A stretch of 53,642 bases of DNA, taken from a virus. Taxonomy: Duplodnaviria > Caudoviricetes. Under the pieces are notes generated by a model. The model worked only from the letters and a program-made list of their open reading frames with translations, was not told the DNA's origin and searched no databases. Location: positions 1 to 53,642 of IMG/VR virus record IMGVR_UViG_3300025098_000062. The stretch is one strand, 5' to 3'. Shown here one piece after another: positions 50,930-51,435 of this stretch; the stretch's first letter is position 1; each line of letters begins with the position of its first letter. The translations under genes were made by a program, and so were the position numbers.

Positions 50930-51189
50930 GCTTACGTAAATGGGTAGGTGAGAAATGGGTAGACATAGGTGCACCAAAAAAGAATGGAAAGTATCAACCT
51001 TGTGGTAGAAAAAAAGCTAAAGGTAGTAAACGTAAATATCCTAAATGTGTACCATTAGCAAAAGCACAACGTATGTCAAAGTCTCAAAAAACTTCAGCAG
51101 TAAAAAGAAAGAGAGCTAAAGCACAAGGAGTAGGTGGTAGACCTACCTTTGTAAAAACATTTAAAAAAAGAACAAAGAAAAAAACATAA
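50926..51189 (+). CDS. Small basic protein (MSLRKWVGEKWVDI...YPKCVP)
   Basis: Lys/Arg-rich, coupled. Confidence 0.7.
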   Translation: MSLRKWVGEKWVDIGAPKKNGKYQPCGRKKAKGSKRKYPKCVPLAKAQRMSKSQKTSAVKRKRAKAQGVGGRPTFVKTFKKRTKKKT

Positions 51190-51237
51190 TCGTTTGACTC
51201 CTTGAGTTGGAAGTAAGCATTGACTGAAGAAACGCAC
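51189..51237 (+). ncRNA. Glutamine riboswitch (glnA RNA motif class)
   Basis: CGTTT/AAACG P1, GACTC/GAGTT P2, and a conserved GGAAGTAAG...CTGAAG E-loop arm; directly upstream of an AGGAGG RBS. Confidence 0.8.
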
Positions 51238-51258
51238 TAACTTTAATTAGGAGGTGTT

Positions 51259-51435
51259 ATGGATAATCAAACATTATACATTTTACAAAAAGAAAAAAGA
51301 GAAATATTTATGGTACGTAAATTAAAAAAAATTAAAAAAGAATTACTTGGTGCATCTAAAATGCATAAAAAACAAGCAACTACTATTGGTAAAATGATTA
51401 AGAAAAAAAAGAAGAATGTTAAAAAAAGAACCTAG
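51259..51435 (+). CDS. Small basic protein downstream of the riboswitch (58 aa, MDNQTLYILQKEKREIFMVRKLKK...)
   Basis: Not in the track; strong AGGAGGT RBS. Confidence 0.65.
   Translation: MDNQTLYILQKEKREIFMVRKLKKIKKELLGASKMHKKQATTIGKMIKKKKKNVKKRT

What the first reader, a model, noticed from the sequence alone, without database searches (positions are those of the whole stretch)
51189..51435. Glutamine riboswitch inside the virion morphogenesis operon, a possible nitrogen checkpoint
Seen: CGTTT GACTC CTT GAGTT GGAAGTAAG CATTGA CTGAAG AAACG CAC directly after a stop codon, then AGGAGGTGTT ATG. The 3' P1 strand AACGC(A)CT can alternatively pair with AGGTGTT over the RBS. Known: glnA-class riboswitches bind L-glutamine and act as ON switches, e.g. 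for the glutamine synthetase inactivator gifB. Inference: glutamine stabilises P1 and frees the RBS of a 58-aa basic ORF that I do not recognise as GifB/DUF4278. That ORF overlaps a coupled chain (51416, adaptor 51697, 52377, tail fibre 52655), so host nitrogen status could gate either a new GS-modulating peptide or virion completion.
Basis: partly seen in the sequence, partly recalled or inferred. Interest (0 to 1): 0.9.

Follow-up and report, generated by a model that had tools for sequence, protein, structure and literature searches.

The report
Glutamine riboswitch cassette in marine phage
A genuine glutamine-sensing RNA switch, carried on a small movable cassette with its own ribosome-binding site and a short leader reading frame, sits between the head and tail genes of an uncultured marine phage; this class of switch is already known from marine phages, but its placement and cassette behaviour here are new details.

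Summary
Rfam's Glutamine model RF01739 matches 51189-51238 (+) at 42.1 bits (cut-off 35), and it is the only curated hit in the window. The aptamer recurs at the same place in 41 of 80 related viral records, and its stems covary.

It is built like the gifB ON-switch. The linchpin C51235 and its neighbours (GCACU) pair with GGUGU of the ribosome-binding site in the minimum-energy fold.

The 58-aa ORF is a composite. Seventeen cassette-borne leader codons are fused in frame to a resident 41-aa basic protein. In relatives without the aptamer, that protein starts at its own ATG.

The cassette is mobile and dispensable. Its presence needs at least 10 gains or losses on the adaptor tree. Its leader fuses to or overlaps three different downstream genes. 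It also occurs in a second phage lineage.

Glutamine binding, the ON direction and any effect on the adaptor or fibre are inferred, not shown. The peptide is not DUF4278. Glutamine riboswitches in marine phages are already published, so this is a new member of a known kind and of moderate interest.

The parts
50926..51189 (+). Upstream 87-aa basic ORF (phrog_23735). Its stop TAA at 51187-51189 abuts the aptamer.
51189..51238 (+). Glutamine riboswitch aptamer (Rfam RF01739), full length
   Evidence: 42.1 bits, cut-off 35, E 7e-06.: covariation in relatives.
51191..51234 (+). P1 helix: CGUUU 51191-51195 pairs with AAACG 51230-51234. The innermost pair is U-A here, where the family consensus has C-G.
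   Evidence: Rfam alignment.: helix 1 is 100% paired, and one pair changes on both sides (UA 22, GC 1).
51197..51207 (+). P2 hairpin: ACUC 51197-51200 pairs with GAGU 51204-51207, closing the loop CUU
   Evidence: 3 of 4 pairs change on both sides
51209..51215 (+). Conserved junction GGAAGUA. By position, G51209 and G51210 correspond to G22 and G23 of the solved aptamer, which sandwich glutamine; G23 makes the linchpin pair.
   Evidence: Invariant in alignment A1. Roles taken from PMC11477058 section 2.3. The mapping onto window coordinates is my inference.
51216..51225 (+). P3: A51216-U51225 and G51217-C51224. The third pair is a C-A mismatch in the window.
   Evidence: mismatch flagged.: closing pair AU 11, GC 7, GU 5.
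51226..51229 (+). Conserved GAAG of the junction
   Evidence: invariant
51235..51235 (+). C that corresponds to linchpin C60 (C68 in Synechocystis gifB). In the minimum-energy fold it pairs with G51256 of the ribosome-binding region.
   Evidence: literature; folds. The mapping is inferred.
51234..51257 (+). Anti-Shine-Dalgarno hairpin: GCACU 51234-51238 pairs with GGUGU 51253-51257. Its inner part covers AGGAGG.
   Evidence: minimum-energy fold.: 94.8% paired in the lineage but invariant there.: compensatory changes across other viral families.
51249..51254 (+). Shine-Dalgarno AGGAGG, the strongest of the 74 ORF starts examined in the window
   Evidence: -10.8 kcal/mol against a generic anti-SD; window median -5.6
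51259..51309 (+). Cassette-borne leader of 17 codons, MDNQTLYILQKEKREIF
51310..51435 (+). Resident 41-aa basic protein (MVRKLKK...). It is a separate gene with its own ATG in relatives that lack the aptamer.
51259..51435 (+). The 58-aa ORF as read in the window (leader fused to the 41-aa protein); the direct translational output of the switch
51416..51697 (+). 93-aa basic ORF. It has no Shine-Dalgarno sequence, and its start lies 20 nt inside the end of the 58-aa ORF.
   Evidence: No family found; only viral hypothetical clusters.
51697..52377 (+). Head-to-tail adaptor. Its ATG overlaps the upstream stop (TAATG).
   Evidence: PF24175, E 6.2e-09
52377..52658 (+). 93-aa Cys-rich ORF with no Shine-Dalgarno sequence; start overlaps the upstream stop
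52640..53641 (+). Tail-fibre-like ORF that runs off the window. An in-frame ATG at 52655 overlaps the upstream stop.
   Evidence: a relative's contig runs on more than 4 kb past the point that matches the window's end.

Best explanation
This is a type-1 (glnA-class) glutamine riboswitch that most likely works as a translational ON-switch.

Proposed mechanism. Without glutamine, the last base of P1, the linchpin C51235 and the next three bases (GCACU) pair with GGUGU at the 3' edge of the AGGAGG ribosome-binding site. This closes a hairpin over the site. With glutamine bound, G51210 would capture C51235 at the base of P1, the hairpin would melt, and ribosomes could start at ATG 51259.

What the switch belongs to. 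It is part of a small mobile cassette made of the aptamer, a nearly invariant linker, AGGAGG, and a short leader ORF with the pattern M-x-x-Q-x-L/M-Y/F-x-hydrophobic-x-K-Q/E. In the window the 17-codon leader has fused in frame to a resident 41-aa basic protein, which gives the 58-aa ORF. That ORF is the direct output.

Possible wider effect. The next genes (93-aa ORF, adaptor, 93-aa ORF, fibre) overlap start to stop and mostly lack their own Shine-Dalgarno sequences. Glutamine-dependent ribosome entry here may therefore also raise translation of the tail-side genes.

What is shown: the aptamer's identity, its conservation and covariation, the complementarity to the ribosome-binding site, the cassette structure, the fusion, and the presence/absence polymorphism.

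What is inferred, with my odds: glutamine binding and the ON direction (about 0.75, by likeness to gifB), and coupling to downstream genes (about 0.4).
For: Aptamer identity and conservation:
- RF01739 scores 42.1 bits against a cut-off of 35 and is the only curated hit in the window.
- 41 of 80 related records carry one copy each.
- P1-P3 are 98.8% paired, 6 of 12 pairs change on both sides, and 0 of 500 shuffles reach this.
- GGAAGUA, GAAG and AACGCAC are invariant in the alignment.

Expression platform:
- The minimum-energy folds of 51186-51275 and 51189-51270 both pair GCACU with GGUGU over the ribosome-binding site.
- In most relatives the helix is 8 bp, AACGCACU with GGUGUGUU, at -10.3 kcal/mol.
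- Of 68 distinct viral expression platforms, 41 have 5 of 5 pairs between the 5 nt after AACG and a 5-mer at or just before the ATG. Compensatory changes occur at two positions: C:G 31 with U:A 5 and A:U 1, and C:G 34 with U:A 7.
- Mean duplex energy is -6.9 kcal/mol against -4.1 for shuffled ribosome-binding regions.
- The literature model for gifB is the same (PMC6212724; PMC11477058 section 2.3).

Cassette and fusion:
- Relatives without the aptamer start the 41-aa gene at its own ATG, overlapping the previous ORF's stop (ATGGTAA).
- Of 45 cassette-bearing loci, the leader is in frame with the 41-aa gene in 34, always 17 codons. It overlaps the start of the 93-aa gene in 7 and the adaptor start in 4 (my reading moves L006 and L043 out of the script's labels).
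- Among 97 distinct contexts of the exact 31-nt platform, the split is 68, 6 and 6, plus 2 contig ends and 15 others.
- Presence of the switch needs at least 10 changes on the adaptor tree, at least 6 of them forced by well-supported branches.

Coupling geometry:
- The 58-aa ORF has the strongest Shine-Dalgarno sequence of the 74 ORFs examined. The ORFs at 51416, 52377 and 52640 have none.
- 38 of 43 distinct sequences upstream of the adaptor end in TAATG.
- In the variants of the L047/L055 type (L047, L055, L056), the adaptor has no Shine-Dalgarno sequence at all, and the leader reads across its ATG.
Against: No experiment:
- Ligand binding and regulation are not tested.
- The calculated energy of the aptamer's stems alone is only -0.9 kcal/mol.
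- The region's minimum-energy fold is no better than shuffles (z -0.34).
- In the best fold that keeps P1-P3, CACU still pairs with GGUG. Secondary-structure energies alone therefore do not predict switching.

The window's copy is one of the weaker ones:
- It scores 42.1 bits, against up to 50 in relatives.
- P3 has a C-A mismatch.
- A 2-nt deletion shortens the anti-SD helix, to -5.6 against -10.3 kcal/mol.

Within the lineage the platform never varies, so it shows no covariation of its own.

27 of the 68 viral platforms do not show the 5 of 5 pairing.

Against coupling:
- The start of the 93-aa ORF lies in unpaired A-rich RNA and could initiate on its own.
- The adaptor has a weak AGGA of its own.
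- The cassette is absent from about half of the relatives, so tail-gene translation does not depend on it.
- In Melnitz-1, an RF01739 aptamer with the same kind of platform precedes a free-standing 32-aa ORF with no overlapping gene. This points to the peptide as the cargo.

The host, and therefore its glutamine range, is unknown.
Confidence: 0.65

Rival explanations
1. Payload-only reading. The switch controls nothing but a small protein, which is the 58-aa leader::p41 fusion here and a free-standing peptide of about 30 aa elsewhere. That protein acts on the host or the virion, and the adaptor and fibre genes are translated independently. The position next to the adaptor is just a permissive gap in a variable region of small basic genes.
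For: - In a sample of viral contigs, the first ORFs after RF01739-like aptamers give 147 distinct peptides in 18 BLASTP clusters. In 16 of the 18 every member is 26-65 aa, and several clusters have conserved C-termini.
- A second phage lineage carries the same cassette between a terS-like gene and terL, with stand-alone ORFs of 26-35 aa.
- In Melnitz-1 the aptamer is followed by a free-standing, unannotated 32-aa ORF. It resembles the L055 leader at BLASTP E 1e-04, 10 of 23 identical.
- The leader keeps a residue pattern (Q4, L/M6, Y/F7, K/Q11, Q/E12) across diverged alleles.
- The start of the 93-aa ORF is unpaired.
Against: - In the deletion variants, the C-terminal part of the leader ORF is whatever an alternative frame of the next gene encodes. 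It is not conserved.
- Variable sites in the leader are spread evenly over the three codon positions (13, 12, 14), so purifying selection on the peptide is not evident.
- The window's own 58-aa ORF gives no BLASTP alignment to the Melnitz ORF.
- In all three junction types the leader overlaps or joins the next gene's start.
Confidence: 0.3
2. The 58-aa peptide is a new glutamine synthetase inactivating factor, an analogue of IF7/IF17, made when glutamine is high.
For: - In cyanobacteria, type-1 glutamine riboswitches mostly precede gifB/DUF4278 genes (PMC6212724).
- The 58-aa peptide is small and very basic, as IF7 and IF17 are said to be. That description is recalled, not tested here.
Against: - The 58-aa ORF has no DUF4278 match at E up to 1, whereas YRG-repeat peptides after other viral aptamers do hit it weakly (19.9 and 14.3 bits, below the 25.3 cut-off) in the same search.
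- 41 of the 58 residues are a resident phage protein that exists without any riboswitch in many relatives.
- The peptide is lysine-rich rather than arginine-rich.
- For another host of a riboswitch-bearing phage (OM43), the authors report that no glnA gene is present (PMC9004378).
Confidence: 0.05
3. The aptamer match in the window is a decaying or non-functional copy, or it senses something other than glutamine, and the ORF is translated constitutively.
For: - The window's copy has a lower score than many relatives, a C-A mismatch in P3, a U where the consensus has C before GGAAGUA, and a shortened anti-SD helix.
- The cassette is often lost in the lineage.
Against: - All junction nucleotides, including the GG and the linchpin C, are invariant in 23 distinct sequences.
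- The stems covary.
- The score is over the curated cut-off.
- A record with the identical arrangement exists (L005), and the same short-helix variant recurs in other alleles (L023, L079, L087).
Confidence: 0.07
4. Same sensor, different output. Failure to translate the leader exposes the RNA to Rho or to nucleases, so that the whole downstream tail block is lowered at the RNA level rather than by translational coupling.
For: - Genes are packed tightly on one strand from here through the fibre. By collinearity with a relative, the block continues into the structural genes at the window's start.
- No intrinsic-terminator-like site follows the aptamer.
- That translational riboswitches can act through Rho is general knowledge, recalled here.
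Against: - The RNA downstream is very A-rich and C-poor, which is a poor Rho loading site. This is read from the sequence and not quantified.
- Nothing here tests RNA levels. The metatranscriptome contigs cannot show levels or ends.
Confidence: 0.1

Closest known systems
Type-1 glutamine riboswitch of Synechocystis gifB (IF17), Klahn et al. 2018, PMC6212724 (passages read)
   Same: - Same Rfam family (RF01739) and the same three-stem aptamer with GGAAGUA, GAAG and AACGC.
- The C after P1 and the bases that follow are complementary to the ribosome-binding site. The proposed logic is the same: glutamine melts that helix and translation goes ON.
- The regulated ORF is small.
   Different: - The element is carried by a phage inside its structural gene block.
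- The downstream ORF is not DUF4278/IF17. It is a cassette leader fused to a resident phage protein.
- The element behaves as a mobile presence/absence cassette.
- There is no experimental test here.
Glutamine riboswitches of Melnitz-like OM43 phages and pelagimyophages, Buchholz et al. 2022, PMC9004378 (abstract and passages read)
   Same: - An RF01739 aptamer in phages of marine bacteria. For Melnitz, the authors report that the OM43 host lacks this riboswitch.
[quoted passage not shown]
- In Melnitz-1 I find the same platform logic (CACUU pairing with GAGUG) and a following mini-ORF whose N-terminus resembles the L055-type leader.
   Different: - Those are large T4-like myophages. There the riboswitch lies after a tmRNA gene, and the authors interpret it as controlling the tmRNA.
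- Here it lies in a genome of about 55-63 kb (contig lengths of relatives) that is distantly related to the HTVC023P/027P group: portal 38-44% and adaptor 34-39% identical. It sits between head-side genes and the adaptor.
- None of the 4 nearest named phage genomes has it.
glnA RNA motif in T4-like cyanophages and marine metagenomes (Weinberg et al. 2010, PMC2864571, section read; PMC9964418 and PMC9602691, passages)
   Same: The same motif, a marine setting, and association with short ORFs of unknown family.
   Different: Those papers list the motif without describing a structural-operon context or cassette behaviour. The host of the present phage is unknown.
Downstream-peptide / glutamine-II riboswitch (RF01704)
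   Same: It senses glutamine and precedes short ORFs of 17-100 aa (PMC2864571).
   Different: No RF01704 match here even at E up to 10. That class has a pseudoknot in place of the third stem.

Membership tests
Rfam RF01739 Glutamine riboswitch (glnA RNA) | Covariance-model score at or above the curated gathering score, over the full model | tested here: met
   42.1 bits against 35, model positions 1-53 of 53, E 7e-06. Confirmed.
Rfam RF01739 Glutamine riboswitch (glnA RNA) | Three stems (P1, P2, P3) supported by compensatory changes | tested here: met
   23 distinct sequences: 98.8% of cells paired, 6 of 12 pairs changed on both sides, 0 of 500 shuffles as high, slid controls 22-44% paired. 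The window's own P3 has only 2 standard pairs plus a C-A mismatch.
Rfam RF01739 Glutamine riboswitch (glnA RNA) | Conserved junction nucleotides, including the two G that flank glutamine and the C that forms the linchpin pair | tested here: met
   GGAAGUA, GAAG and AACGCAC are invariant in alignment A1. Roles are from PMC11477058 section 2.3. The residue mapping is my inference. One deviation: U instead of the consensus C just before GGAAGUA.
Rfam RF01739 Glutamine riboswitch (glnA RNA) | Selective binding of L-glutamine | not testable with these tools
   Needs in-line probing or calorimetry.
gifB-type translational ON platform | The linchpin C and the bases after it pair with the ribosome-binding site in the ligand-free fold | tested here: met
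   The minimum-energy folds pair GCACU 51234-51238 with GGUGU 51253-51257. The helix is 94.8% paired but invariant in the lineage. Compensatory changes appear across 68 viral platforms, of which 41 show 5 of 5 pairs. That it switches is inferred.
gifB / IF17 regulon (DUF4278, PF14105) | The downstream ORF carries DUF4278 | tested here: not met
   No PF14105 match for the 58-aa ORF at E up to 1. In the same search, YRG-type peptides from two other viral contigs score 19.9 and 14.3 bits, below the 25.3 cut-off.
Rfam RF01704 glutamine-II (Downstream-peptide) | Covariance-model match | tested here: not met
   No hit at E up to 10 in 44000-53642.
SU10-type head-to-tail adaptor (PF24175), for the gene at 51697 | Pfam match over the cut-off | tested here: met
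   37 bits against 27, E 6.2e-09, covering 14-212 of 226 aa.

The most novel reading that the evidence does not exclude
The aptamer, the AGGAGG site and the mini-ORF together form a mobile, nitrogen-gated ribosome entry module that marine phages insert into polycistronic late operons.

In this lineage the module replaces the stop-start coupling between the head-side small basic genes and the adaptor/fibre block. The ratio of tail-side to head-side proteins would then follow the host's glutamine level. The natural polymorphism between switch-bearing and switch-free genomes would reflect adaptation to different nitrogen regimes.

A corollary: the mini-ORFs of about 30 aa that follow glutamine riboswitches in very different phages would be one unrecognised family. 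This includes an unannotated one next to the tmRNA of Melnitz-1.
Probability: 0.2. Interest if true: 0.75.

Novelty: new member of a known kind. Interest (0 to 1): 0.45.

Why it matters
Riboswitches carried by phages are few, and their targets are mostly unknown. Here the target can be narrowed down.

The same cassette is joined to three different downstream genes in close relatives. Only the aptamer, the ribosome-binding site and the first dozen or so leader codons are kept in all of them. This gives a concrete pair of hypotheses to test with simple reporter fusions: a mini-protein cargo, or a gate for downstream translation.

The natural genomes with and without the switch, which are otherwise near-identical around it, are ready-made controls. 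They could be compared against nitrogen gradients in ocean metagenomes.

The work also suggests re-reading a published case. In Melnitz the riboswitch lies after the tmRNA and directly before an unannotated mini-ORF.

It does not reveal a new class of RNA or a new regulatory principle.

Tried and rejected
Host assignment
- There is no tRNA gene in the window. GC is 29-34% across the window.
- The nearest named phages infect SAR11, Roseobacter, a gammaproteobacterium and cyanobacteria, but at only 31-44% portal identity and 26-39% adaptor identity. I do not name a host.
- A scan of one genome per prokaryote species, using the lineage-type aptamer core, gave 3 stretches:
  - one in a Desulfocapsaceae MAG, which I read as a chance match inside GC-rich sequence with no P1/P2 context;
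  - one in a filamentous cyanobacterium, followed by an ORF beginning MKLSYRGV (YRG-type by eye, read from the printed sequence);
  - one on a 911-base contig binned with an alphaproteobacterial MAG, which carries a different peptide family.
  None helps to place this phage.

Expression
- Contigs of four metatranscriptome runs from one study (X1-X4) match the adaptor region at about 98-100%. They cover 51149-51392 only thinly.
- One contig joins 51257 to 51424, which is a variant without the body of the 58-aa ORF.
- These are contigs from RNA libraries that may hold DNA. They show no starts, ends or levels, so I draw no conclusion on transcription.

Promoter or terminator at the aptamer
- The consensus scan gives no more promoter-like sites than shuffles do (29 against 30.8). 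It finds no + strand terminator-like site near the aptamer.
- A weak TTAAAA-18-CATAAT site ends at 51190. That would start transcription inside P1, so I reject it.

A pairing between the 5' strand of P1 (GUUUGA) and leader codons 3-5 (UCAAAC)
- It is present in many lineage members, and it is 8 bp in L079 and L080.
- It drops to -1.1 to -1.9 kcal/mol in L006, L008, L049 and L076, without compensation. It is absent in 70 other viral sequences (mean z 0.12). I leave it unexplained.

Function of the neighbouring small ORFs
- The 93-aa ORF at 51416 and the 58-aa ORF have no Pfam or PHROG family.
- The ESM Atlas gives only viral hypothetical clusters for the 93-aa ORF, plus a DUF5771 lead at 0.88, which is below the level worth trusting.

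Structural masking of the 93-aa ORF's start
- It is not found: the start is unpaired in the minimum-energy fold.

Literature
- Ren et al. 2015 could not be read, either by DOI or by PMC id. I used a review's account of it instead.
- Searches that bear on "not in print" are. None returned a paper describing a glutamine riboswitch in a podophage or in a structural operon.
- Supplementary tables of PMC9004378 and PMC6212724 were not seen. They may list further phage examples.

Tools not used or not available
- No structure prediction, complex prediction or large protein-database search was run. Short lysine-rich helices would not have given interpretable answers.
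Full report
WHAT IS THERE

The window is a 53,642-base IMG/VR virus record that CheckV estimates to be 70% complete. The 87-aa ORF 50926-51189 ends with TAA at 51187-51189. The aptamer follows at once, then a 10-base linker, AGGAGG at 51249-51254, TGTT, and ATG at 51259.

cmscan against all 4227 Rfam families finds a single match above a gathering score in the whole window, on either strand. It is RF01739 (Glutamine riboswitch, glnA leader) at 51189-51238 (+): 42.1 bits against a cut-off of 35, E 7e-06, with the full model matched. 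A permissive scan of 44000-53642 adds only four chance-level hits (E 3.5-6.9) and no glutamine-II match.

The window's copy has three deviations from the consensus. The innermost P1 pair is U-A instead of C-G. A U replaces the C before GGAAGUA. P3 has a C-A mismatch.

IS IT REAL?

I used the adaptor protein (51697-52377; Pfam SU10_adaptor, E 6.2e-09) as a handle. This found 269 relatives in IMG/VR, and the best 80 loci were kept.

RF01739 is over its cut-off, exactly once per record, in 41 of these 80 records: 14 of 40 and 27 of 40. In the loci I mapped it lies at the same place.

I aligned 23 distinct sequences: 21 from this lineage and 2 other viral ones with the same P1 variant or a G-C variant. 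The three stems are 98.8% paired, and 6 of 12 pairs change on both sides. The P3 closing pair, for example, is AU in 11, GC in 7 and GU in 5. None of 500 column shuffles reaches these values, and sliding the 3' partners by 1-3 columns drops pairing to 22-44%. GGAAGUA, GAAG and AACGCAC never vary.

The aptamer is therefore a conserved, structured member of the family. It is not a chance match.

EXPRESSION PLATFORM

A review of the solved structure says that glutamine is wedged between junction residues G22 and G23, and that G23 inserts at the base of P1 to form a linchpin pair with C60 (PMC11477058, section 2.3). Klahn et al. state that in Synechocystis gifB the corresponding C and the bases after it can pair with the ribosome-binding site. 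They postulate that glutamine melts this helix, which turns translation on (PMC6212724, passages).

By position in the Rfam alignment, these residues are G51209, G51210 and C51235 in the window. This mapping is my inference.

ViennaRNA's minimum-energy folds of 51186-51275 and 51189-51270 both pair GCACU (51234-51238) with GGUGU (51253-51257), enclosing AGGAGG. The register is slightly different from the one it wrote.

In most relatives the linker to the ATG is 2 bases longer, and the helix is 8 bp (AACGCACU with GGUGUGUU, -10.3 kcal/mol). The window's variant gives -5.6 kcal/mol.

Inside the lineage this helix is 94.8% paired but invariant, so it carries no covariation of its own. This supplied other viral families.

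Among 68 distinct expression platforms, 41 have 5 of 5 pairs between the five bases after AACG and a 5-mer ending at or within 12 bases of the ATG. Compensatory changes occur at two positions: C:G 31, U:A 5 and A:U 1 at one; C:G 34 and U:A 7 at the other. Mean duplex energy is -6.9 kcal/mol against -4.1 for shuffled ribosome-binding regions and -6.0 for cross-paired types. The remaining 27 platforms do not fit this scheme.

Thermodynamics alone does not show switching. The stems of the aptamer are worth only -0.9 kcal/mol, the z-score of the region is -0.34, and CACU can still pair with GGUG when P1 is enforced.

The ON-switch reading therefore rests on likeness to gifB.

THE 58-AA ORF IS A COMPOSITE

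Relatives without the aptamer keep a homologue of only the C-terminal 41 residues. It begins at its own ATG (MVR.LKK...). That ATG overlaps the stop of the previous ORF (ATGGTAA), which is either the 87-aa gene's homologue or a 40-aa hydrophobic ORF.

Relatives with the aptamer carry three things upstream of that ATG: the aptamer, a platform that hardly varies, and exactly 17 codons in frame. The platform is the same through GGTG and differs only in the last few bases before the ATG.

There are 45 cassette-bearing loci, counting the window and duplicate contigs. In 34 the leader is in frame with the 41-aa gene. In 7 that gene is missing and the leader overlaps the start of the 93-aa gene. In 4 both are missing and the leader reads across the adaptor's ATG. 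I moved L006 and L043 out of the script's labels after reading their sequences.

A second, unconditioned sample used the exact 31-base platform. It gave 109 stretches in IMG/VR and 97 distinct contexts among all loci held:
- 68 in frame with the 41-aa gene;
- 6 overlapping the 93-aa gene's start;
- 6 overlapping the adaptor's start;
- 2 at contig ends;
- 15 others.

What all of them share is the aptamer, the platform and a leader that begins M-x-x-Q-x-L/M-Y/F-x-hydrophobic-x-K/Q-Q/E (27 distinct 18-codon leader sequences).

Variable sites in the leader fall evenly on the three codon positions (13, 12, 14). Selection on the peptide is therefore not evident, although the residue pattern persists across diverged alleles.

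MOBILITY

On a tree of 80 adaptor sequences (49 distinct; L013, a partial adaptor, was left out), 42 rows carry the aptamer, 33 lack it, and 5 lacked enough upstream sequence to judge. Presence or absence needs at least 10 changes, at least 6 of them forced by well-supported branches. The shuffled mean is 21.4, so the trait is clustered but repeatedly gained or lost.

Records with identical adaptors carry different junction types, for example L048, L050 and L047.

Of the four related records that are at least 90% complete, two have the aptamer (G005, G040) and two do not (G029, G066).

I inspected 5 of the 15 "other" contexts. All five belong to a different phage lineage, in which the cassette lies between a terS-like gene and terL. 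There it has stand-alone ORFs of 26-35 aa, and RF01739 scores 52.5-53.4 bits in the three loci scanned (L244, L235, L210). In one of them a 41-aa-like ORF follows (BLASTP E 5e-04, low-complexity caveat).

CONTEXT AND COUPLING

Gene families place the switch between head-side genes and the adaptor and fibre:
- terminase at 38605;
- portal at 40275;
- major head protein at 45586;
- a run of small basic ORFs that includes DUF6321.

A 93%-complete relative is collinear with the window. It shows more than 4 kb of further sequence past the point that matches the window's end, and the genes at the window's start lie beyond that. The co-oriented block downstream of the switch is therefore long.

I examined 74 mechanically listed ORFs, one of which has no upstream sequence. 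Of these, 41 have a Shine-Dalgarno core of four or more bases. The 58-aa ORF has the strongest (AGGAGG). The ORFs at 51416, 52377 and 52640 have none, and the adaptor has only AGGA.

Starts and stops overlap throughout this stretch. 38 of 43 distinct sequences upstream of the adaptor in relatives end in TAATG.

It makes a glutamine-gated entry point plausible, most of all in the variants of the L047/L055 type (L047, L055, L056), where the leader reads straight over an adaptor start that has no Shine-Dalgarno sequence.

Three things count against strict dependence:
- The 93-aa ORF's start lies in unpaired A-rich RNA.
- The cassette is absent from half of the lineage.
- In other phages the unit after the aptamer looks like a free-standing small protein.

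THE WIDER PICTURE

In the viral sample, the first ORFs after RF01739-like aptamers give 147 distinct peptides of 15 aa or more. They fall in 18 BLASTP clusters, and in 16 of the 18 every member is 26-65 aa. Two of the YRG-repeat peptides among them hit DUF4278 weakly, at 19.9 and 14.3 bits, below the 25.3 cut-off. The 58-aa ORF and the other families do not hit it.

A platform from one of these families matched the region annotated as SsrA in the four Methylophilales phage Melnitz records.

In Melnitz-1 the tmRNA models end at base 891 of locus L305. RF01739 lies at 899-947 (52.8 bits). It is followed by CACUU..GGGGAGAGUG, an ATG at 970 and a 32-aa ORF that the record does not annotate. Its N-terminus aligns with the L055-type leader (10 of 23 identical, E 1e-04 for the single comparison). 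It does not align with the window's own 58-aa ORF.

WHAT IS KNOWN

- The glnA motif was described from cyanobacteria and marine metagenomes (PMC2864571).
- It is listed in T4-like cyanophages (PMC9964418 and PMC9602691).
- It is reported in the OM43 myophage Melnitz, in Pelagibacter phage Mosig and in pelagimyophage genomes. For Melnitz, the authors report that the OM43 host lacks the riboswitch (PMC9004378).
- RF01739 is also reported in SAR86 (PMC12379486).
- Nitrogen assimilation genes of SAR11 are induced during infection by HTVC027P (PMC12753301).

The nearest named phages to this window are HTVC027P, HTVC023P, 023Pt_psg01, DSL-LC04 and the roseophages CRP-901 and CRP-902. Their portals are 36-44% identical and their adaptors 34-39%. 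The whole genomes of the first four hold no RF01739 match.

My five literature searches returned no description of a glutamine riboswitch in a podophage or in a structural operon. I did not see the supplementary tables of the papers cited.

VERDICT

The most likely mechanism is a glutamine-ON translational switch of the gifB type. Its direct output is the 58-aa leader::p41 fusion.

Whether it also gates the adaptor and fibre genes is open; I put it at about 0.4. The idea of a glutamine synthetase inhibitor is unsupported.

The new details are:
- the cassette behaviour;
- the three alternative junctions;
- the fusion to a resident gene;
- the presence/absence polymorphism;
- the occurrence in a second lineage.

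The class of element and its presence in marine phages are not new.

Noticed in passing
L305 (MZ577095.1, Melnitz-1) 474-1068: The tmRNA models end at base 891 and RF01739 lies at 899-947. It is followed by an anti-SD/SD pair, an ATG at 970 and an unannotated 32-aa ORF (MTLYQQWCYLK...). The record annotates a reverse-strand 33-aa CDS there instead. The published reading, that the riboswitch controls the tmRNA, may need revisiting: the riboswitch sits downstream of the tmRNA and directly upstream of a mini-ORF.
   Followed up: partly
L244 4364-4563; L235 2057-2210; L210 2385-2540; also L215 and L246: The same cassette (identical 31-base platform; RF01739 at 52.5-53.4 bits in the three loci scanned) occurs in a second phage lineage between a terS-like gene and terL. 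There it has stand-alone ORFs of 26-35 aa, such as MSKQFLYCLLQEKK...ILKALCK. In L244 a p41-like ORF comes next.
   Followed up: partly
L096, L134, L148, L163, L164, L130 (viral contigs from the pattern scan): Aptamers, which in L096, L134, L148 and L163 are the second of a tandem pair, are followed by GGAG and then an ORF of only one or two codons (ATG, one codon or none, then a stop). In the platforms that end GGAGATG, the start codon lies inside the anti-SD helix. In L163, for example, a longer ORF (MTKYQ...) follows.
   Followed up: no
window 49616-51697 and the matching region of L005-L084: The stretch between the DUF6321 gene and the adaptor is a hypervariable run of small, very basic ORFs (56, 59, 87, 41 and 93 aa) plus an optional 40-aa hydrophobic ORF (MNITPELI...). 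Some relatives go straight from DUF6321 to the adaptor (L037-L041, L069).
   Followed up: partly
window 51192-51197 and 51268-51273: GUUUGA in the 5' strand of P1 is complementary to UCAAAC in leader codons 3-5. The pairing is extended to 8 bp in L079 and L080, but drops to -1.1 to -1.9 kcal/mol in L006, L008, L049 and L076. It is absent in other viral families.
   Followed up: partly
window 50066-50596: A 176-aa ORF matches phrog_3704, labelled ferredoxin (moron/auxiliary metabolic gene), at E 3.2e-19. It has no Pfam family.
   Followed up: no
L205 183-233 (911-base contig binned with an alphaproteobacterial MAG): RF01739 at 60.5 bits is followed by a 65-aa peptide of the ...KSTNNW family, with a tRNA on the other strand. 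This is probably phage DNA binned with a bacterial genome.
   Followed up: no
window 22684-24603 (-) and 27607-31910 (-): Ribonucleotide reductase, DNA polymerase and primase/helicase lie on the minus strand between the two plus-strand structural blocks. This is an ordinary replication module.
   Followed up: no
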